Position numbers and translations under genes: made by a program
Shown: positions 1-12,572 of the stretch, piece after piece
Layout of the letters: every line of letters begins with the position of its first letter
How positions within the stretch are numbered: the stretch's first letter is position 1
Notes under the pieces: model-generated
Database searches by the model: none
The model's input: the letters and a program-made list of their open reading frames with translations, nothing else
Told to the model about the DNA's origin: nothing
From: Schmidtea polychroa
Taxonomy: Eukaryota
Reading direction: 5' to 3'
DNA length: 64,000 nucleotides
Assembly (NCBI GenBank): GCA_044892525.1
Contig: CM097885.1
Coordinates: 33,358,001 to 33,422,000 of the forward strand

Positions 1-39
1 TGGTGTAAATAATGTTATATTCTATTATAAACCTTTCAC

Positions 40-388
40 TTGCTTGCTTGCGTTGATCAGTTTGGATGCCGCCTTTATTTATAATATAGGTTTTCAGTAT
101 TTGACATTTTTTTAGATTAATTCTTAGTTTATCTTCTGCAATTTTCTGCAATATTCTTTCCAACAGTTGGTAGTGTTCTTCCATCGTGTTCGTAAAAATT
201 GATATATCGTCCAAATAAACCATTACCTGGTCTTTCCACAAATCCTTTAATATCTTCTCCATAAGCTCTGGAAACGTGCCTGGTGCTGCTGTGATGCCAA
301 CCGGCATTCGGTTGAAACAGAATTGTCCTTATTTCGTTGAAAAACTGTTTTCACCTGTGATTCTCTATTCAATCTTACCTGATAGTAT
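40..388 (-). pseudogene. Ty3/Gypsy reverse transcriptase fragment, interrupted at 388 by the LTR insertion
   Basis: Minus strand reads YYQVRLNRESQVKT..GQFCFNRMPVGITAAPGTFPELMEKILKDLWKDQVMVYLDDISIFTNTMEEHYQLLERILQKIAEDKLRINLKKCQ, with lesions. Contains YLDD and other Gypsy RT motifs. Confidence 0.9.
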
Positions 389-1448
389 TGTTGAGGTCCG
401 TAAATTAAAATAAATTTAAATGAAATTTAGGTTAATAATTTAAATAAAAAGTAAGTGAAGAAAAAAGACAAATAAAATCGTGATCATGTACAGAATTGAT
501 AGCAAAGGAAAGTACGATGGAAGCAGTATTAGAAAATGCCAAAAGCAATTACGAAAGGCAAGAATCCGGAAATCCGAGAAAAATCAATAAATTGTAAAAT
601 CATCGAAATCGAATTGGAAAAACGGGACAGGTATAGAGTAGCTAATGGTCAACAAGATGATGGTTTGGGATTTATCAGAAAATTGTTAGGACGGGTCGAA
701 AAGCATTCAAATGTGTAAAAACAGAAAACGTTAATTAATTAATTAATTGGCTAATAGAAAACCCGAGATAATGGGAAACCCGAGCCAATGGAGAACCCGA
801 GAGATAAAGGAAACCCGAGCTGGGTAAACAAGAAGAAAAGCAAACAGAAGGAAGATTTGGGCCCATTAGCTTGACACAATGATTAATGGGAAAAGAGCAA
901 GGAGAAGAAAGCGCGTAGGAAGACCGGAAGGGCCATTAATTATCTGGATTCGTTGAACCATTATGGGTGACAGCCGAAGCAAATACGTAGGAGCAAATGT
1001 CAAATGAAAGATTGGCTCGGCAATAACCATTTGTCATCCTGATTTCGAGGAGTATATAAGGAAAGGGAAAATCAGAGAAAATCGGCATTCTGCCTCAGCT
1101 AAGGTTGGAAGAAACAAAGCTTAGGAAAAGGCGAAAACGAATTAGGGAAAGTTGGGAAAAGAAGAAATAGAATTAGGAATACGGAAAGGTGAAAAAGGAA
1201 TCAAATCAAACAGAAACCGAGGAAAACGTGAGTCAAGAGAATCTAAAGGAATAAAAGGTGAATATTATCTATTTGCAAAGCATCAACGCCGAGCGGAGAA
1301 TCGTATAAAACTTTGATTAGTAATTGTAAAGTGGTGATAATAAATTGTGAACCTGTTGTTTCAATATACGTTGGGTCGTTCATTGTTTTGATTTAAAGAA
1401 CACTAGGAAGTCAGAGGGAACCGACTTGAAGTAATCCGAAACCCAACA
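389..1448 (+). repeat. 5' LTR (~1060 bp)
   Basis: Starts TGTTGAGG and ends ACCCAACA (short terminal inverted repeat). TATATAA at 1053 and AATAAA at 1339. PBS follows 7 bp later. The start coincides with the break in the older RT. Shares blocks with the LTR at ~11581-12572. Confidence 0.85.
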
Positions 1449-1455
1449 TATATTC

Positions 1456-1473
1456 TGGTGAGCCCGACGTGAT
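1456..1473 (+). promoter_or_regulatory. Primer-binding site, tRNA-Trp-like
   Basis: TGGTGAGCCCGACGTGAT differs at one position from the classic tRNA-Trp PBS TGGTGACCCCGACGTGAT and lies directly after the LTR. Confidence 0.85.
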
Positions 1474-1735
1474 TGCAAGTCGGCGGAAAATTATTGAAAG
1501 TTAGTGAAAAAAAATAATTATTGAAAAATAGTACCGACGTGATTAAAAGTCGGAGGAAAATTATTGAAAGCTAGTGAAAAAGAAATTATTAAAAAATTAG
1601 TACCGACGTGATTGAAAGTCGGCGGTGTATTAAAAGCTAGTTAATTATTGGAAAAGTACTACAGACGTGAGTGAAAGTCGGCTGAGAATCATTGAAAGTG
1701 GTGAAAATTTGTGAAAATAGTGCTAACGAGATTAT
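1463..1735 (+). repeat. Leader tandem repeat (~65-70 bp, ~4 copies), each with a CCGAC...GTCGG hairpin
   Basis: CCGACGTGATTG(C/A)AAGTCGG-like units at ~1464, 1534, 1603 and 1663, separated by A-rich spacers. Confidence 0.8.
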
Positions 1736-1793: not shown

Positions 1794-2015
1794 GTGAACC
1801 GATACAACCTCAGAAGTCAAAAACAAGTCCAAATGGCAAATGACAATGCTGTTATGCCTCGCAACAGAGAGATGATTGATTTCGCAAGTTGTCAGAAATT
1901 ACCCGTCAATCAATATGGAGGAGACCCTGTTGAATTTGCAGATTTCATGGGAGATTATTATATGTATGCCTCAGCATACGGATGGCACTCACTAACCCAA
2001 AGTGAACTAAAGTGA
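1794..2015 (+). CDS. Gag N-terminal fragment of the LTR element
   Basis: LPVNQYGGDPVEFADFMGDYYMYASAYGW resembles the Ty3/Gypsy Gag N-terminal F/YxG...F...F...A....W pattern. First ORF after the PBS. Confidence 0.55.
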   Translation: MNRYNLRSQKQVQMANDNAVMPRNREMIDFASCQKLPVNQYGGDPVEFADFMGDYYMYASAYGWHSLTQSELK

Positions 2016-2075
2016 GCCATAAATTTATGTGCAAAGTTATTCAAAGGAAACAGAGACGATGAGATACTTAAACAA

Positions 2076-2519
2076 ATGCAAAAGTTTGGCAAGGCTTTAC
2101 GGTCAACAAGGGATTTAGCTGATATCATATTGGAAACGACGGGACTTGATAATGTGAAGTACCAATTCCGTGTAAATGCCTACGGGCAAATCATAGAGCT
2201 AAAGGAGCGAATACTGCGTCAATACAGTGGATGGCAAGTGCAATTAAAATTTGAGAATCGATGTCTGGAAGACGAGGAGTACTTGGTAGATTGCGGTTTG
2301 ATACCAGGCTGGAAAAATAAAGTAAATGTTGTTAATGCTGTTTATACTTTGAATTCAGACAGACAAAATTGGGAAAAGATTCTAGCAGATTTACAAGATA
2401 CCCTGTATGCAGGGAATAGGGATAAAATTAATGCGAGTATCGATTTCATAATGAGCATCGAAATGGATCGAGACATGAAAGAAGGGTTGTTTGAATGCAT
2501 CGTACCCTATACGAATTAA
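2076..2519 (+). CDS. Polyprotein segment with ubiquitin-like domain 1
   Basis: IIELKERILRQYSGWQVQLKFENRCLEDEEYLVDCGL parallels ubiquitin IENVKAKI...[22 protein letters not shown]. No di-Gly end. Confidence 0.65.
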   Translation: MQKFGKALRSTRDLADIILETTGLDNVKYQFRVNAYGQIIELKERILRQYSGWQVQLKFENRCLEDEEYLVDCGLIPGWKNKVNVVNAVYTLNSDRQNWEKILADLQDTLYAGNRDKINASIDFIMSIEMDRDMKEGLFECIVPYTN

Positions 2520-2603
2520 CCGACAAGTTATCAGACAAAGTTAAAAGAGGTAATCAGAAGACTAGGACATGATTATGAGGCGGCAGACGATAGTGCGAAG
2601 TCT

Positions 2604-4583
2604 TTGATAATAGCGTTTAATATTGCGGATCAAAGGATTGAATATTATCAGAAACATTGGAGTGTAAAAGCAAAGAAAATACGACAGAAAGCAGCGGAGA
2701 TATTAGGTAATGAAGGAATTATCGTGTTGACGTTCAAAGGACGAGAATTAGATGATGACGAATATTTGTTAAACTACGGATGTAACCCAAATTGTATTAA
2801 TAATGTGTACGCAACAAAACAAAGTGATGAAATGGAAAGAGATGCAGTAATAGTACCGTTTTGGCCTCCGTATGAGGAAACGGATAATGATAATGGTGAG
2901 ATTAAAACTGAAGTTGTAGATGACCCAGGAGAAATTGATCAAGAAATTAATGAATTGCAGAGATTAGAAACAATGGAAAATGAGGAAATGGGATCGGAAA
3001 ATGAAATTACAAGGGATATCGAGGAAATGAGCACCGATAATAGGGCACTACCGAGCATAGATGAGATGAAAAGTGAAGAGAACTTCGTTGAAACGAAAAA
3101 TAACATTGCGATATGTCGGAAAAAACAGAATGATGCGGAAACTGAATCTTTGAGTTTAGATGAATTAAGCGAGACTGAGCGAATATTAAAAAGTTTAGTT
3201 ACGGAATTGTACTTGTTAGATGAAACTGAAACAGAAGGAGATGATACTTCGGAGGGGGAGAAAAGAGTTGTAAAGAGATTGGCAACGGAATTAAAGAGGA
3301 GATTGCCGTCGATAATTAAAAGAAATTATGAAGAAAAGGAATTTTGTGAGGAAGCAGTAATTGAGGACCTAACACGAACCGAGTTGGATCGAGATGTAAT
3401 ATTGACAGTGCTAGCCTATATAATATTGGAGATTGGTATTTATGGTTGTCTGGAAGCTGACAATTCAAAATCATTGATAAAGAAAGCCACTGAAATGACA
3501 AATAAATATTTGATGAAGTGGATCGCAAACAATGGCGGATGGGAAAAGTTGATACAAAAGGCTGAGAGCCCAAAAACAGAGACAGTGAGGAAAAAGGGAA
3601 AACTCGCATTTCCATGGTTGATGATCTCTATTATTATGTTATTGGGAATAATAAACACGACGAATTCATTGGTGGCATACGACTGCTCCCAATTCAAAAT
3701 GGGGAGAGTATATTCGTTGGTAAACGTAGCAGAGTGTTCAGATGCATACCCAGTAAAATTTAAAGTGACAAATCCAGTAAAATATCTTGTATATCAAGAA
3801 TCGGGGTTTCGACGAGCAAAGGTGAGAGAGTGTACAGTGAAACGAACTACTTTTGTATTTTATTGTGGAAAATGGAGCCACTCATCGATGGTGAAAATGC
3901 AATCGATACCGAGACCGATAGAAATAATTCCAGAGAATTGTTTGGCAGCCTTTCAAACAGGACAGTTGAAAATCAATGCAGATATTAAACTACAAGCAAA
4001 GCTTAACCACAAAATCCGTGAGACTGTAACCGTGCGTGGGATAATAAAGTCGAATGGAGATTGCCAAGGAGAGCCATACAAAGTAGACGATGCTATAATT
4101 GACAAAGCCGTGGTTGTGGAAGAGTACATGTTAGAATTAAGAGAATTTGATGGATCATTTGATGATGATACTGGTAAACTACAAACACATCCATTCTGCA
4201 ACATGAAACAATCTAGCTGTCAGACAGGAGAATCAATCTTGGTGTATGATGTCGATACCAAAAGGTGCAATTTAGTGCAATTGAAGTCAATGAGTTTTAA
4301 AGAAATAACGGGAGAACAGATCAGGGAAAAGCCTGAGAAGATAAGAATGGATCCAGCAACGAGTACAACAACAAGAATCACACCTCTACGGATGAAAGAT
4401 ACTCCAACAGTGTTAATGTCAACCTCGACAGAAGATGGGATGCGATTCCTGAGAAAAGAAACTAAAACAAAGTGTGGACAAAATGTCTATGAGACAAATT
4501 ATAAAGGTATATATGTATCTCAGAAGGTGATTACAGAGGCCCAAACAAACATACATGCCGGAGATATTAAGTTGACAAATTAA
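2604..4583 (+). CDS. Polyprotein segment: UBL2, acidic linker, Bcl-2-like domain, TM/signal peptide, N-terminal half of class III-like envelope glycoprotein
   Basis: UBL motif LTFKGRELDDDEYLLNYG (2604-2820). BH2-like WIANNGGWEKL (3519-3551). Hydrophobic PWLMISIIMLLGII, then LVAYDC (3669) and a Cys-rich ectodomain of chuvirus/gB-like type. Confidence 0.8.
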   Translation: MIIAFNIADQRIEYYQKHWSVKAKKIRQKAAEILGNEGIIVLTFKGRELDDDEYLLNYGCNPNCINNVYATKQSDEMERDAVIVPFWPPYEETDNDNGEIKTEVVDDPGEIDQEINELQRLETMENEEMGSENEITRDIEEMSTDNRALPSIDEMKSEENFVETKNNIAICRKKQNDAETESLSLDELSETERILKSLVTELYLLDETETEGDDTSEGEKRVVKRLATELKRRLPSIIKRNYEEKEFCEEAVIEDLTRTELDRDVILTVLAYIILEIGIYGCLEADNSKSLIKKATEMTNKYLMKWIANNGGWEKLIQKAESPKTETVRKKGKLAFPWLMISIIMLLGIINTTNSLVAYDCSQFKMGRVYSLVNVAECSDAYPVKFKVTNPVKYLVYQESGFRRAKVRECTVKRTTFVFYCGKWSHSSMVKMQSIPRPIEIIPENCLAAFQTGQLKINADIKLQAKLNHKIRETVTVRGIIKSNGDCQGEPYKVDDAIIDKAVVVEEYMLELREFDGSFDDDTGKLQTHPFCNMKQSSCQTGESILVYDVDTKRCNLVQLKSMSFKEITGEQIREKPEKIRMDPATSTTTRITPLRMKDTPTVLMSTSTEDGMRFLRKETKTKCGQNVYETNYKGIYVSQKVITEAQTNIHAGDIKLTN

Positions 4584-4637
4584 TTTAATAACAAAATAGA
4601 TTATTTATTTCACTTTGGTCAAAATACCGTTGAAAAT

Positions 4638-6503
4638 GTGTACCGAGAAGTTATTATAAATGATTGCAATCTCAACAAAGAAATACTCCGAAATCGGATG
4701 GCAATGGCTATAACCAATCCTAATTTAGTAGCACCAATGTTAATTACAGAAAATGGGGTGTTTGCCAGAATTTTCGGTGAAGCACTATATAGCTATAAAT
4801 GTAAAGCGGTACCAGTCGAACTGACAAAGTACGACCAATGCACCAACGAGTTGCCAGTAAATTTAAATGGAAAGTTGCGATTTATGGAGCCTGTAACACG
4901 AATCTTACTGGAAGAGGACGTGAAACCGAAAGTATTACAGTGCAATAGATTGTTGGCACCACTATACAGACTAACACCAGAATCTTGGATTGCATTACCA
5001 GATCATCGAGAAGTAAAGACACCGGAAAATTTAGAATTGACAGAATTACAATATCTGGTAAATTTTACGTCGTTAGAAAAATTGTCGCAAAGTGGAATTT
5101 ATTCGAGCGAAGACATTAAGGAAGCTCGCAGAAACTTGTTATTTCCATCAAAGAAAGAAAGAGTAATAATGGAAATGGTAGATACAATTCTCCCAAGCGG
5201 AAGTGGGAAGGTAAATTACGAGTATTTATTAACTCCAGATCATTACAAAAAAGCGACGTATAATACAATGAAAAGGATCTGGGGAAACTTTATGTTCATT
5301 GGACAAGCGTGTGCCGGATTGATTAGAATTTATGTAATATGTGTTGTAATTAAAGTAATAATATCGCAGGTCCTATCAACACACAGGTTATACGCGATCA
5401 CAGGTTGGTCGTGGAAACTAGTAATTGGTTGCATACCATTATTGGCTAGATTCTTCATTACTCATCATCAATATCAGGAGTTGGAGATACTCAAGGCGCG
5501 AATATTAAAGAAGAAAAAGGTGAGCTACGCTAGTACAACCCCTTCAAGGGACGAGAATAATGACAATGACAACGAGGGTGATAGTGCACCGTTATATGTT
5601 GACAATCAAGAACTAAGTGGAATGAATAAAGAAGCGTTAAGAACCTATCAAATCTTAAAAGAGCCACTGTTGAATGCGAGTAGCGTAGACACGTTTACAA
5701 AATTGCGTATAACAAAATCGTTTATGCAATCAGCACCAGTTTATCCAGTTGATCGATTACGAGAAATGAAGCCAGTCGAAAATATCGCATTACAATGCGA
5801 AAGAATGGCAGGAGAGAGAGTCGAGAGAAAAAATATGCTAGGCTTACCATGCAATTACTCATTGATGACATTAACAAAAAGAGGAAAACAACCCCGAATA
5901 TTTATACAAATGAACAAACATAAAGTGGAAGCTTTGGTTGATTCGGGATCTAGTCACACAATAATATCGGAAAATGTATTAAACGCGAAGGAAAGAATGC
6001 GAATAAAGCCTACCGACGAAATAGTAAGGTCATTATCAAAAAACGAATTAAACATAATTGGACAACTTAACGTCGTATTTCATATTGGAGATCGAATAAT
6101 AGCGCACGATGCACTCATAATGAAGGGAAGTCCAGTACGATATCTGATCGGCATGGATATATTAGAGCAGCTGGACGGAATCTCACTTGATTTAAAGACA
6201 GGTAATTTGATAGCAGGAGAAACAGGAGAAATAATTCACAGGGCAGGTGAAGTGTTTGTGAATCAGACATTGACAATACCACCACAATCGGAGATGGTAT
6301 ATTGTGCAAATACCACGAGTGTGGATAATGGTGATTTTATATTCGAACCAAATCAAACACTAGTCGAAAAATATGATCTACCGATATGTGACGAAATTGT
6401 CAAAGTGGAATCAATATGGACTAAAGCCGGTTTGACAATAAAGCAAAACCAAGAGAAATATAAAGAAGCCTACGATAAAAATGCACATGCGCATGGCATA
6501 TAA
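4638..6503 (+). CDS. Polyprotein segment: envelope C-terminal half, TM helices, retropepsin protease, then post-integrase-like tail
   Basis: GEALYSYKCKAVPV..CTNELPV..FMEPVTRIL..SGIYS motifs typical of chuvirus-like glycoproteins. Hydrophobic segment ~5280-5460. ALVDSGSSHTII (DSG at 5940) and LIGMDIL mark an aspartic protease. Confidence 0.82.
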   Translation: MYREVIINDCNLNKEILRNRMAMAITNPNLVAPMLITENGVFARIFGEALYSYKCKAVPVELTKYDQCTNELPVNLNGKLRFMEPVTRILLEEDVKPKVLQCNRLLAPLYRLTPESWIALPDHREVKTPENLELTELQYLVNFTSLEKLSQSGIYSSEDIKEARRNLLFPSKKERVIMEMVDTILPSGSGKVNYEYLLTPDHYKKATYNTMKRIWGNFMFIGQACAGLIRIYVICVVIKVIISQVLSTHRLYAITGWSWKLVIGCIPLLARFFITHHQYQELEILKARILKKKKVSYASTTPSRDENNDNDNEGDSAPLYVDNQELSGMNKEALRTYQILKEPLLNASSVDTFTKLRITKSFMQSAPVYPVDRLREMKPVENIALQCERMAGERVERKNMLGLPCNYSLMTLTKRGKQPRIFIQMNKHKVEALVDSGSSHTIISENVLNAKERMRIKPTDEIVRSLSKNELNIIGQLNVVFHIGDRIIAHDALIMKGSPVRYLIGMDILEQLDGISLDLKTGNLIAGETGEIIHRAGEVFVNQTLTIPPQSEMVYCANTTSVDNGDFIFEPNQTLVEKYDLPICDEIVKVESIWTKAGLTIKQNQEKYKEAYDKNAHAHGI

Positions 6504-6519
6504 TAATAAATTTATGTCG

Positions 6520-7180
6520 GATTTGAAGAATTTTAAAACCAAGTTGGATTTAACTAATTAAATCATAATTTAAGTCTTGCTGCGAAGTATATATTTAATA
6601 AAATGAAAGAATTTTTAACTATAATAATTGCTGTTTATAATTCATATTTTCCTTTGTACATCGATTGGCTTTCTTATTGTTTTTCGTCTTTATGACATAT
6701 ACTTTCTGTGTGAAGTTTTTCTTTGCGAGACAATTTTTTTATAGAATCCATATGTTGGAGTATCTACTTCTATTTTAATTTTTAAGTCCAGTAGATTGAG
6801 GGATCCATCTTTTTCCGAAAATTCGATTTCAAACGTAATATCTCAGTGAGTAGCATTAAATATATGATATATTTATTCCGCTTCCTTTCTGATCTTGACC
6901 GTGATAAAATATCATCTACATATCTTGCGTAGAAACCGACGGATTGTATGGTTCTCGGTGTTTGTTGTTCGAGGTTGTTCGTTTGTTGTTCGGAATATTT
7001 TGTAACGAAGCTTTTAGGTAATCTGTTCTTGAAGCCCATTTCTATAAGCCTTTCCATACTTTGTTGATCTTCATTTCTTATGATATTTGGTGACAAGCGG
7101 CTAATTTTCTTGTATGTACCGATGTCGCTGAGGTGATCGTAAGCAACTTCACAGTATCGGTTTTTCTCTATTAAGCAAAA
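6520..7180 (-). mobile_element. Penelope-like element RT fragment (deleted), truncating the LTR element
   Basis: Minus strand: FCLIEKNRYCEVAYDHLSDIGTYKK, FYARYVDDILS, ITFEIEFSEKDGSLNLLDLKI. Confidence 0.75.
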
Positions 7181-7428
<248 letters not shown>

Positions 7429-8919
7429 GTTTTTAATTTAGTAAATGCATTTATACTTTTAAAATTTACTATTTCGTTATAATGTAAAAAATCGTACCGA
7501 AATCACAAATAATGTTATGTATAAATAAAAGAAAAATAAAATATCATAAAATTATCTTTTAGAAATGCATTTGGCGGATGGATAATGACTACAAAAAACT
7601 GTTTTCACCATTAAAATAATACAATGGTCATTAATTGGTTATTGTTGTTGCAGTTTATGAAATATTATAACTAATTAACTCTATATATATATTGCATACC
7701 CTTAGTGAAGAAATAATACTCCTTTCATTATAGTGGTGGGTTACAGATAACCGGACTATACCGCTCAGTGTTGTTTCCAGCGTAACCCAGAATGTTTCTT
7801 TACCAATCGATACCCGTTGAGTAATAACTTAATAACTCCGGCTCCTCATTTTTATTTTAGTGTATTCTTTTCCGTAGTTGATCCGTTAAGGACCTGAGAA
7901 CATACTTTTCCCGTCTAACATTAATATAACTAAAATCTTTATTTCCATCACCCAGCAAATTTTCTATTGAGCGCTATCCAATATAATTTGTCATCACTCC
8001 ACTTATCACCACACTACTATTTGATGCAACATTTCAACACTAATTCATTGTTTCCCTAACCCATCATTTCCTCTCCAACTATGCCTCATATTAATTCGTC
8101 AGTTCACCCAATCATACCTTATTACCTTTTCTCATCTAAACTCTATCTATCATTAACGGCCTAAATTGTTTGGTAAGTCACTTAGCTCCTTTCTATTACT
8201 AGAACTTGGCGGTCACATCTACGATTGTGTTTCGGTTGGTAATGTATATGAGATTATATTGATTAAATGTCTCTTGCTTGAGTCATTTCCGATAAGTTTA
8301 TCAGAAGATTTTGACCAAAAACGTTTAATTAAACATAGCGAGATAAAATGAAGCATATTTACTTATTCTTATTCTCCGAATCTTACACATCAAACTTGTT
8401 ATGCGTACGATAAGATGTTCTCAACTTTTCCTATCTCAGATCTGGTGGATGTACGATCGAAAGAAGTTAGATGAGAACCTTCACAAATCTTTTAACGATT
8501 ACTTTTTGAGCCCCCAATAGAAGAAAATTTGACGGAGATTCACAAATGTTTTATATATTACCCTCTTCAATTACATGATAAACTTCCAGGAATCCCTGTA
8601 TTACAGATTTTACAAATAGGTGAGTGATTAGGTGGAGATATGATTTTTTTCAGAAGAGAATTAAAATGTTTTTGTCTTTCAACGAATAGATATCATTATC
8701 ATAGTCATAATAGGGAATCATTCACCAAATCATTGATTGCTTGCCTTTAACTTGTTAGCCTTCCTATGATATTTCCCGTCACCTTACTCGACTCTTTGGT
8801 CGAAGTTATGAGATAATTTGGTAGAACACTGTATGATAGTGCTTGAAATAAAATAATTCTCCAAAGAAGGGTGGATTAATTATTACTAGTTCATTTTTCG
8901 ATAATGGGCATCGACTACT

Positions 8920-10315
8920 TCCAACCATGTCTACTCACGACGGCTTGTCTCATTTGAGCAACAATACTTTTGGGGATCTCTTGATTTTTCAAATCTTTAC
9001 GGGTCCATCCCTCTCACTGGAGAGAACAACGTTTTAACAGTTACAGCTTCTTTCTTCGAAACCTTCAAACCAGAAACTGTTTTTGCAGACTTATCTGAAC
9101 AAGATTTCATAGAAATTGTCAAACTAGCCATAAACTCAGATACTGTATTAATTAAAGGAAAACCGTTCAAACAAATTCATGGTCTAGCTATGGGTAACAA
9201 TCTTTCGCCGATTTTAGCCATTTTCTACATGCATCATGTAGAATCAAATATTAGATCATTTTTTGGTGATAAAATCCTGATGCGGAAAAGATACATTGAT
9301 GACATTTTCATAGTCTCCACGGTTCCTCTCAATATAATCTTGGCACATGCAAACTCCACTAACACTAATATACAATTCACTCTTGAACTACCTGATCCAG
9401 AAGGCAAGATTGCTTTTTAGATACCATAATAAGTACTTCTGATGGTCCAAACACGCTCACATTCAAGACAGATTTATTCACTAAAAAGTCTACACAGTGG
9501 GCACATTCTTCCTTGGGAAAGTCATGTTCCACTCCAACGAAAAATCGCTCTATTAGTAGGAGAGAGAAAAAGAGCAATACGGAACTATTCGGACAAAACG
9601 AGAAAACAAGAAACCCTGGAAAACTTTAAAACATGGCTTTTACAAAATGGATATTCAAAGGAGTTCGTAGAAAAATAATTCTTGAGTGAATATATCTCTA
9701 ATAGGCATAATACACAAAAGGAACATGTCAATAAGCCAGTAACATACCTACACTTCCCTTTTTTAAACAATAGGACATGTAATACAATCAGAGCTTACAT
9801 TCGCAATATGAAGTTGGCAGTTCATATTCGCCCAATTTTTATAACTGCTGCACCTTTGAAATCACAGCTTTGTAAGTCTCAAAAATCTCTAACATCAGAC
9901 CTATTTCATCGAGATTGTATATGCCAATCCTCCACCAAATGTTTCTGCTTCTCAAAGAACATCGTTTACCAAATTACTTGCACAAGATGTGACGAATCTT
10001 ACATAAGAGAAACACTTAGAACGTTCCTAACAAGACTCAACGAACACTTCAAGAGCAATACCAGCAATTATCACGAACACTGAGGAAAAAAGTGCACAAA
10101 TCAGAACCACTCTTACACGAAACAAAATGCAAAATGTTACAAGATGCGTTCAAAATTCATTGCAAAGATTAGCCGCGGAGACTCTTTATATCAAAAAATT
10201 TAAACCGTCCATCAACATTCAACTAAATTAATACTTAAATTAATATTTAATTAAATTTAAAATTTAAAATTAAAAAAATATTTAAAAAATATAAAAAACG
10301 TTTTTTTATAAAATG
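8920..10315 (+). mobile_element. Penelope-like retroelement, 5'-truncated RT + GIY-YIG endonuclease, frameshifted
   Basis: SLDFSNLYGSIPL, GLAMGNNLSPILA, KRYIDDIF, IQFTLELP, LLQNGYSKEFV, and GIY-YIG NIVYQITCTRCDESYIRETLRTFLTRLNEH. Confidence 0.9.
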
Positions 10316-11580: not shown

Positions 11581-12572
11581 TGTTTTGAGGTTGTTAAAGT
11601 AAATTATTAAATTATATCAAATTGAATAGTTCCGAATAAAAAGAAAACAAAAATTGAACGAAAAAGAATGGCGGTCAAGCAGAGAAGTAATGGCAAAGAA
11701 AGATATGATAAAAACAGAACTATAAAAGCGTACAATCAGGCACGAAATGGAAAAATGCGCAAACCTGAGGAAGTGGAATAAAGTGAAATCTTATCGAAAT
11801 TGAAGCTGGAAAATAGGAGAGGGGTAGATTAGGGAATGGTTAAGAAGACAGTGAGCAAGAAATTATTAGAAAAGGTTTGGAAAGGGTCGAAGAACAGGCA
11901 AATATGGTAAAACACAAACTATTAATTAATTAATTAATTGGCTAATGGAAAACCCGAGCTAATGGGAAATCCGAGCCAATGGAGAACCCGAGCGATGACG
12001 AAAACACGAGCGCAGCAATTTGGGAGAATAAACAAGCTGGAAATTTAGAGGGCAATTATCCAAACAGTCGGATAAACGAGGGTAAACAATAGAAGGGGAA
12101 TTACTAAAAGGGTCAACAGAAATAACTAATTAGAGAACGATAACTAAGGAAGTAAAAACCAATTAGGTCAAAAACAGAGCAATTAAAACGATTATTGGAG
12201 TATATAAGGAAACTCCAAATTCAGATAATCGGCTAGTTTCTCGGGTAGGGAAAAAGAAACTGACAATAGGAGTTTGAGGAACAAAGCTAAGAACTGAAAG
12301 GCAATTATAAGAGGAACTGAAGAGTTCGAAAAAGAAATATTAAAGGAGTTCGGATCATAGAGTGGAATCAAATAAAACGGTGAAACCTATTTCGAGATTG
12401 TCCAGGGCGAAGTTTGATCAGAAATTGTGGTTAACTAAAAGTTGTAATTATTAATTGAGAATTGTAAATTTGCTATAAAACAAATATACGTTGGGAGTTG
12501 TGTTTACCAATTTAGGGACACGTGGAATCAGAGTAACCAACAATCGACTTTTTATTATCATAAAACCCAACA
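11581..12572 (+). mobile_element. Solo LTR of a family related to the 389-1448 LTR (left boundary approximate)
   Basis: Shares the (TAAT)n-GGCTAAT..AACCCGAG..CCAATGGAGAACCCGAG block, GAGTATATAAGGAAA, AATATACGTTGGG and the ACCCAACA end. No PBS follows and no TSD was found. Confidence 0.7.

What the first reader, a model, noticed from the sequence alone, without database searches (positions are those of the whole stretch)
1833..6503. Endogenous retrovirus-like element whose single polyprotein places UBL-UBL-Bcl-2-Envelope between Gag and protease
Seen: four ORFs share one frame and are separated only by lone stop codons, with open sequence between them. This gives a ~1,560-aa polyprotein downstream of an LTR and PBS. 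Domain order read from motifs: Gag stub, 2 ubiquitin-like domains, acidic linker, Bcl-2-like domain, hydrophobic segment, Cys-rich glycoprotein, TM, DSG protease. Established: in retroviruses and errantiviruses env is a separate ORF 3' of pol. Inference: a distinct virus-like retroelement architecture that co-expresses fusogen, apoptosis modulator and UBLs from one precursor. I recall large planarian Gypsy elements (Burro) being reported with a BCL2-like factor, so novelty must be checked against them.
Basis: partly seen in the sequence, partly recalled or inferred. Interest (0 to 1): 0.95.

Follow-up and report, generated by a model that had tools for sequence, protein, structure and literature searches.

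The report
Broken copy of known planarian retroelement
This is a damaged copy of an abundant, already catalogued retrovirus-like jumping element of planarian flatworms, whose odd gene order is real but published, although fuller copies also end in a second membrane protein that may not have been described.

Summary
The frame has only 3 internal stops. Every sibling copy covering those positions is open there, so the stops are decay.

The 'Gag stub' and the end after the protease come from two in-frame deletions seen only in this copy. Siblings read Gag–UBL–UBL–Bcl-2-like–gB-type (class III) Env–PR–RT–RH–IN in one frame.

Arkhipova & Yushenova 2019 described UBL, BCL2 and in-frame env between gag and pol for planarian Burro elements. 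Chary & Hayashi 2026 list this family as Smed_errantivirus_2: its env piece differs from the window at 5 of 251 residues, by eye.

Not found in my searches: (1) a second signal–ectodomain–TM–PPxY module after integrase, under purifying selection and paralleled in 3 distant relatives; (2) an RT-less subfamily (5 of 20 copies) that keeps this module in frame; (3) a tRNA-Trp primer site.

The scan earlier noted a giant Burro element in this genome, but not this family.

The parts
389..1448 (+). 5' LTR, 1,060 bp, TG...CA ends
   Evidence: 3,449 first-look candidates in the genome; 4-bp target duplication in 3 of 3 solo LTRs
1456..1473 (+). Primer-binding site complementary to the 3' end of a tRNA with a CCA (Trp) anticodon
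   Evidence: a pattern joining anticodon, T-loop and the PBS complement occurs 819 times; the 100 listed lie in a 284-bp tandem array
1464..1712 (+). Four short PBS-like repeats in the leader
   Evidence: families D16, D17
1833..1985 (+). N-terminal 51 codons of Gag; siblings continue into a full Gag with Retrotrans_gag and three CCHC knuckles
1985..1990 (+). Junction of a copy-specific in-frame deletion (1,254 nt of Gag missing)
2013..2015 (+). Stop 1 (decay)
   Evidence: open in 23 of 23 distinct sibling copies covering it
2118..2354 (+). Ubiquitin-like domain 1 (weak; no C-terminal di-Gly)
   Evidence: PF00240 E 0.006; E 0.0009-0.002 in siblings; all 9 PDB hits ubiquitin-like, best E 0.67
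2355..2591 (+). Helical spacer containing stop 2 at 2517-2519 (decay)
   Evidence: open in 24 of 24 distinct copies; shared changes 6 synonymous, 0 non-synonymous
2592..2825 (+). Ubiquitin-like domain 2 (weak; no di-Gly)
   Evidence: 19 of 22 PDB hits ubiquitin-like, best E 0.037; similar to UBL1, E 1e-5; no Pfam hit
2826..3149 (+). Acidic linker
   Evidence: sequence
3150..3590 (+). Bcl-2-like domain (BH2-type W..NGGW kept, BH1 NWGR not kept)
   Evidence: 5 of 5 family members match PF00452, best E 2.5e-5, window 0.014; profile finds Bcl-xL at E 7.7e-5, and all 60 shown of 129 hits are Bcl-2 family
3603..3659 (+). Hydrophobic internal signal/anchor in front of the glycoprotein
   Evidence: aa 591-609; signal role is inferred
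3663..5300 (+). gB-type / chuvirus-like (class III) fusogen ectodomain, with stop 3 at 4581-4583 (decay)
   Evidence: PF24664 E 1.3e-90; 33 of 34 PDB hits are herpesvirus gB, best E 0.019; open in 25 of 25 distinct copies
5307..5363 (+). Transmembrane anchor of the fusogen
   Evidence: aa 1159-1177
5886..6176 (+). Aspartic protease (DSG)
   Evidence: four protease families over or near their cut-offs, best E 2.5e-7
6177..6410 (+). Post-protease domain (dUTPase-like in Burro according to PMC6431247; no Pfam hit here), cut by a copy-specific in-frame deletion of 2,574 nt (RT, RH, IN core)
6411..6500 (+). Remnant of the integrase C-terminal region; the element breaks off here

Best explanation
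The window holds a dead, twice-deleted and 3'-truncated copy of a high-copy planarian Ty3/gypsy 'GAG-ENV-POL' element. It is the family catalogued as Smed_errantivirus_2, a compact relative of Burro. SHOWN: fuller copies encode one frame of about 3,300 aa, ordered Gag(3xCCHC)-UBL-UBL-Bcl-2-like-signal-gB-type Env-TM-PR-RT-RH-IN-GPY/F-signal-second ectodomain-TM-PPxY tail. All parts are under purifying selection in the transposing lineage, and priming uses a tRNA-Trp site. INFERRED: the precursor is threaded through the ER membrane like an alphavirus or flavivirus polyprotein. Gag, the UBLs and the Bcl-2-like domain stay cytosolic and are anchored by the hydrophobic segment, which doubles as the Env signal. 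Host signal peptidase frees the Env ectodomain. PR-RT-IN sit on Env's cytoplasmic tail and are released by the element's protease. A second signal after IN makes a second type-I membrane protein, whose PPxY tail may recruit Nedd4-type ligases for budding. This would give equimolar Gag, Env and Pol without splicing or frameshifting, with Pol packaged through Env rather than as Gag-Pol. The Bcl-2-like and UBL domains most likely protect the producing cell or the precursor (cell-death and protein-turnover pathways); this step is the weakest.
For: Family identity: the env piece differs at 5 of 251 residues, by eye, from Smed_errantivirus_2. Copy number: 941 env and 3,449 LTR candidates. Single frame. 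Selection: variants shared by two or more of 20 copies are 224 synonymous to 80 others, against 270 to 434 for singletons (Fisher p 3e-25). Shared-variant omega is 0.11 UBL1, 0.05 UBL2, 0.26 Bcl-2, 0.06 Env ectodomain and 0.16 post-IN ectodomain; plain pairwise omega is 0.11-0.37. Hydrophobic segments. The same order occurs in distant env homologues: Bcl-2-like before env in 4 of them, UBL-like in up to 4, and env fused to PR/Pol in 10 of 14 long hits scanned. Contigs of probable-RNA runs bridge Gag to Env (4,172 nt) and Bcl-2 to the post-IN domain (6,683 nt), with no GT..AG joint among the 6 listed.
Against: No protein, processing or particle data. Both structure models failed (mean pLDDT 30 and 35) and Foldseek found nothing, so the UBL folds rest on weak sequence hits; UBL2 has no Pfam hit. 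The direct PDB search with the window's Env found no fusogen, and the profile hits to gB are marginal. The Env ectodomain of the window copy has only one N-glycosylation sequon. Topology rests on a simple hydropathy scan. The runs are only guessed to be RNA. The 20 copies were the + strand rows among the 40 best env hits, so they are a biased sample. The match to the published family was made by eye on one 251-residue piece.
Confidence: 0.88

Rival explanations
1. A categorically new retroelement architecture.
For: The architecture is real and family-wide. The eLife main text has no mention of Bcl, ubiquitin or polyprotein, so the cargo of this particular family may be unannotated.
Against: [quoted passage not shown] The family and the GAG-ENV-POL class are catalogued.
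Confidence: 0.03
2. The window copy is a functional or domesticated sub-genomic form (Gag stub plus cargo, Env and protease), kept in frame by selection or made by splicing or stop read-through.
For: Both deletions are in frame, a 1-in-9 chance. A different in-frame RT-less form did amplify (5 of 20 copies).
Against: Three stops are private to this copy. Both junctions are unique among the hits scored. The junction ends are not GT..AG. The 3' end and 3' LTR are lost.
Confidence: 0.04
3. The element no longer makes enveloped particles. Env and the second membrane protein serve mainly to anchor assembly at the ER, or to load extracellular vesicles, while transposition stays inside the cell.
For: No particle evidence. 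The UBL and Bcl-2 motifs are degenerate.
Against: The Env ectodomain is as constrained as Pol (shared omega 0.06) and keeps the family's cysteines, which a plain anchor would not need.
Confidence: 0.2

Closest known systems
Smed_errantivirus_2 (Chary & Hayashi, eLife 2026, PMC13524379; I saw the abstract, part 1 of 2 of section 5, keyword passages, and rows of supplement files 2, 3, 5, 6, 7)
   Same: Env piece 246 of 251 residues identical by eye; gB-type env; GAG-ENV-POL order; high copy (215 listed).
   Different: No difference shown. The supplement row gives no LTR and tRNA 'none'. The main text has no hit for Bcl, ubiquitin, polyprotein, fibronectin, 'single ORF' or 'in-frame'. The authors' GitHub ORF files and the figures were not seen.
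Burro / GYPSM1 giant gypsy-like elements of planarians (Arkhipova & Yushenova 2019, PMC6431247, section 7 read in full; Grohme 2018 not held)
   Same: Single polyprotein with Gag and CCHC knuckles, a Ubi/SUMO-like domain, a BCL2-like domain, in-frame env, PR, then Pol.
   Different: About 3,300 aa rather than 4,873-5,140 aa. No BIR, ankyrin or MATH hit in the frames scanned. Roughly 16-18 kb (inferred) rather than over 30 kb. Two UBLs. That paper tied env to gypsy/F-type Env while also noting mononegavirus hits; here it is PF24664/gB-like. No post-integrase membrane protein is mentioned there.
Chuvirus-like (Monjiviricetes, PF24664) glycoproteins and gB-type env of mosquito BEL/Pao elements (as cited in PMC13524379)
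   Same: Class III-type fusogen family; about 20-25% identity to stand-alone ~650-aa glycoproteins, those named being from insects.
   Different: Here it is embedded in a polyprotein between a Bcl-2-like domain and the protease.
Alphavirus/flavivirus membrane-threaded polyproteins (recalled, no call)
   Same: Works like: internal signals and stop-transfer anchors alternate cytosolic and luminal products from one frame.
   Different: Unrelated RNA viruses; an analogy only.

Membership tests
Ty3/gypsy LTR retroelement (Metaviridae) | LTR with TG...CA ends, short target duplication and tRNA PBS | tested here: met
   (4-bp duplication in 3 of 3 solo LTRs)
Ty3/gypsy LTR retroelement (Metaviridae) | Pol order PR-RT-RH-IN with GPY/F module | tested here: met
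   met in siblings; RT, RH and the IN core are deleted in the window copy
Ty3/gypsy LTR retroelement (Metaviridae) | RT phylogeny within Ty3/gypsy | not tested
   No reference set in hand; one search gives only 46-56% RT identity to five unnamed relatives. The paper places all six Smed elements in one RT clade.
Platyhelminth GAG-ENV-POL errantivirus, family Smed_errantivirus_2 | gB-type (class III) env placed between gag and pol | tested here: met
Platyhelminth GAG-ENV-POL errantivirus, family Smed_errantivirus_2 | Near-identity to the published family sequence | tested here: met
   5 differences in 251 env residues, by eye; other regions not compared
Burro (Burro1/GYPSM1 type) | UBL, BCL2-like and env in frame between Gag and PR | tested here: met
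Burro (Burro1/GYPSM1 type) | Giant size (over 30 kb; ORF about 4,900-5,100 aa) | tested here: not met
   ORF about 3,300 aa; LTR 1.06 kb; total length only inferred
Burro (Burro1/GYPSM1 type) | BIR, ankyrin and MATH_TRAF domains | tested here: not met
   no such Pfam hits in Gag-side or Pol-side sibling frames; an accessory ORF in the unread 3' region is not excluded
Burro-2, -3, -4 | Sequence identity to those families | not testable with these tools
   Grohme 2018 and Repbase not held
Bcl-2 family | Sequence profile match over BH1-BH2 | tested here: met
   the window member is below the Pfam cut-off
Bcl-2 family | Intact BH1 NWGR groove motif / anti-apoptotic activity | tested here: not met
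   motif not kept (by eye); activity untested
Ubiquitin-like (beta-grasp) domains | Fold | tested here: inconclusive
   weak but consistent sequence hits; model pLDDT 35, no Foldseek hit
Fibronectin type III ectodomain (post-IN protein) | FN3 fold | tested here: inconclusive
   Atlas look-alikes FN3-type at 0.84-0.87, a lead only; L.P.T.Y motif after IN in 2 of 3 relatives, not in this family; no Pfam or PDB hit; model pLDDT 30

The most novel reading that the evidence does not exclude
These planarian elements are two-glycoprotein retroviruses built from one membrane-threaded polyprotein. Pol sits between the tail of a class III fusogen and the signal of a second, FN3-like type-I membrane protein with a PPxY tail. 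The second protein would act as attachment factor, receptor decoy or budding adaptor, a layout I found described for no retroelement. It matters enough to be kept in frame by an RT-less parasite subfamily and to recur, with unrelated sequence, in distant families.
Probability: 0.45. Interest if true: 0.6.

Novelty: already known. Interest (0 to 1): 0.33.

Why it matters
What the copies add is useful to retroelement specialists. There is population-level evidence that the UBL, Bcl-2-like and Env cargo are kept by selection as protein. A primer tRNA and LTR are now assigned where the paper's table has none. There is a candidate second membrane protein after integrase. If that protein and the threaded topology are confirmed, they would show a way to build an enveloped retroelement without Gag-Pol fusion, splicing or frameshifting, in a tractable model animal.

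Tried and rejected
Structure prediction of the UBL region (single sequence) and of the post-IN ectodomain (9 rows, 7 of them near-identical copies) gave pLDDT 35 and 30; Foldseek on both gave no hit at E<=0.001. These results are uninformative.

Word-index homologue searches found 4 env hits, none for the UBL2-Bcl-2 stretch among longer proteins and none for the post-IN protein. A direct PDB search with the window Env gave only weak centrin hits. The post-IN segments of this family and of P0009, P0012 and P0020 show no ectodomain similarity above shuffled controls, so only their topology is shared.

Splice origin of the two window deletions was rejected. Amplification of the window's own deleted form was not seen. 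No RNA holder is listed on record for the stretch.

A multi-family UBL alignment was not built. The stretch from about 3.7 kb past the ORF to the 3' LTR was not read, so full length and any 3' accessory ORF stay open; no shared ORF of 150 or more codons was seen in the part read. No RT tree against named references was built.

Literature searches for the post-IN protein: 0 papers; 0; 2; one checked, the other seen as listing only. PMC8532177 and PMC13238120 were seen as keyword passages only and did not bear on the architecture.

Full report
1. Observation. Read with X at the stops, window 1833-6503 gives 1,556 codons with three internal stops. The other frames have 158 and 121 stops and shuffles at least 95, so the frame is real. 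Upstream lie a 1,060-bp LTR (389-1448) and an 18-nt PBS (1456-1473). Pfam finds the Monjiviricetes fusion glycoprotein (E 1.3e-90), an aspartic protease and a weak ubiquitin hit.

2. The copy against its family. The genome holds many relatives: 941 first-look candidates for the env part, the best 40 at 97-100% (self included), and 3,449 for the LTR. I fetched 20 of those 40, the + strand rows, which is a sample biased toward the window. They match the window only over 1989-6410. Four other copies show that 1,254 nt of Gag are missing at 1985/1990, and eleven show that 2,574 nt are missing at 6410/6411; one copy in each set gives another length. The window copy ends at 6500 with no 3' LTR. Both losses are in frame, have no splice-type ends, and are spanned only by the window among the 40 hits scored for each. 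The three stops are private. Of 33 loci tested (29 distinct copies; four were fetched twice), all that cover the positions are open: 23, 24 and 25 distinct copies.

3. Natural architecture. Siblings have a full Gag (Retrotrans_gag, three CCHC knuckles), then UBLs, a Bcl-2-like domain, Env, PR, RT, RH and IN in one frame. One of the 20 is open over the whole 9 kb of frame fetched; the rest carry scattered private breaks. The ORF is about 3,300 aa. The full element is probably 16-18 kb, inferred from the shared 3' sequence and one copy's coordinates. The PBS matches a tandemly arrayed tRNA with a CCA anticodon.

4. Domains. Env: PF24664; 1,460 homologues at E<=0.001; a 66-sequence profile hits herpesvirus gB in 33 of 34 PDB rows, though only at E 0.019 or weaker, and the single sequence does not. 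Bcl-2-like: 5 of 5 family members match PF00452, and the profile finds Bcl-xL at E 7.7e-5; NWGR is not kept. UBLs: the best PDB hits are ubiquitin-like for both (E 0.67 and 0.037), they resemble each other (E 1e-5), and neither ends in di-Gly. Folding failed, so the UBLs are probable, not proven.

5. Selection. Variants shared by at least two of the 20 copies are mostly synonymous (224 to 80), while singletons are not (270 to 434; p 3e-25). Shared-variant omega is 0.26 or less for both UBLs, the Bcl-2-like domain, Env and the post-IN ectodomain; the two short signal segments give 0.39 and 0.59 on very few changes. Pairwise counts agree (0.11-0.37). The cargo is therefore maintained as protein in the lineage that transposes. 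Shared variants are not independent events, so the p-value is only indicative.

6. Beyond the finding. After IN and its GPY/F module the frame continues into a hydrophobic signal, a ~315-aa ectodomain, a TM and a PPxY tail. It is present in 15 of 20 copies, partial in one, and absent from four that end earlier. It is open from IN to the end in 7 of the 10 that have both parts. All three distant relatives that extend that far show a similar hydrophobic pair after IN, without sequence similarity in the ectodomain. FN3 is a lead only (negative). Five copies share an in-frame loss of RT-RH-IN that rejoins at this signal. Contigs from four runs guessed to be RNA cover the region, two bridging 4.2 and 6.7 kb; this does not prove a single transcript.

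7. Mechanism. Shown: one frame, the domain order, selection and the primer site. Inferred from hydropathy and general knowledge of membrane polyproteins: alternating cytosolic and luminal products, host signal peptidase plus element protease processing, Pol tethered to the Env tail, and a second type-I protein with a late-domain-like tail. Roles for the Bcl-2-like and UBL domains in cell survival and protein turnover are plausible but untested.

8. Prior knowledge. PMC6431247 (section 7 read in full) reports for Burro a Ubi/SUMO-like domain, BCL2 and env between BCL2 and PR as the first in-frame env between gag and pol. PMC13524379 (abstract, part of section 5, passages and supplement rows) reports GAG-ENV-POL elements with gB-type env in nematodes, bryozoans and flatworms. 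It lists Smed_errantivirus_2 (215 copies), whose env piece differs from the window at 5 of 251 residues by eye. The host is therefore a planarian, very probably Schmidtea. The element works like Burro but fails Burro's size and BIR/ankyrin/MATH features. Grohme 2018, Repbase, figures and the GitHub files were not seen and could already hold the post-IN protein; my searches for it found nothing. The scan had noted a Burro element and a Polinton Bcl-2 gene in this genome (unchecked), but nothing like the post-IN protein.

9. Verdict. A real feature and a known system, in a dead copy. Interest 0.33, carried mainly by the apparently undescribed second membrane protein and the RT-less subfamily.

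Noticed in passing
L013, L015, L022, L026, L027 (sibling copies): 5 of 20 copies share one in-frame 2,904-nt loss of RT-RH-IN that rejoins at the start of the second signal sequence. A contig of run X2 shows the same joint. Upstream they are no closer to each other than to full copies (97.3% within, 97.5% between), which suggests the deletion spreads by recombination with helper genomes.
   Followed up: partly
sibling copies, after integrase (P0006 aa 126-502): Second signal, about 315-aa ectodomain with four N-glycosylation sequons, TM and PPxY tail; present in 15 of 20 copies. A similar hydrophobic pair after IN occurs in all 3 relatives that extend that far (P0009, P0012, P0020).
   Followed up: partly
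window 2-328 (- strand): Fragment of another reverse transcriptase (PF00078, E 9e-17), just upstream of the LTR; the element probably inserted into an older retroelement.
   Followed up: partly
window 8905-10083 (+) and 6782-7192 (-): Decayed RT (E 1e-6) and GIY-YIG (E 0.007) pieces suggest a Penelope-like element. The 6782-7192 frame looks similar by eye but had no Pfam hit.
   Followed up: partly
window 11581-12572: A second, diverged LTR-like stretch, 71% identical to the first over about 420 nt, with no PBS or target duplication seen; probably a solo LTR of a sister family.
   Followed up: partly
G000:C4 from about 55.02 Mb: A large tandem array (284-bp unit) of the tRNA-Trp that matches the PBS; 819 pattern matches genome-wide. 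Other tRNA arrays lie on C4 and small contigs.
   Followed up: no
window 1464-1712: The leader carries four PBS-like repeats with short self-complementary ends; they could be spare primer sites or packaging hairpins.
   Followed up: no
P0012 (HBK71150.1): A relative of this polyprotein is filed as a hypothetical protein of a Flavobacteriaceae MAG; probably animal DNA mis-binned.
   Followed up: no
P0007, P0009, P0010, P0011, P0019: Several relatives carry two to four aspartic-protease-like repeats between Env and RT.
   Followed up: no
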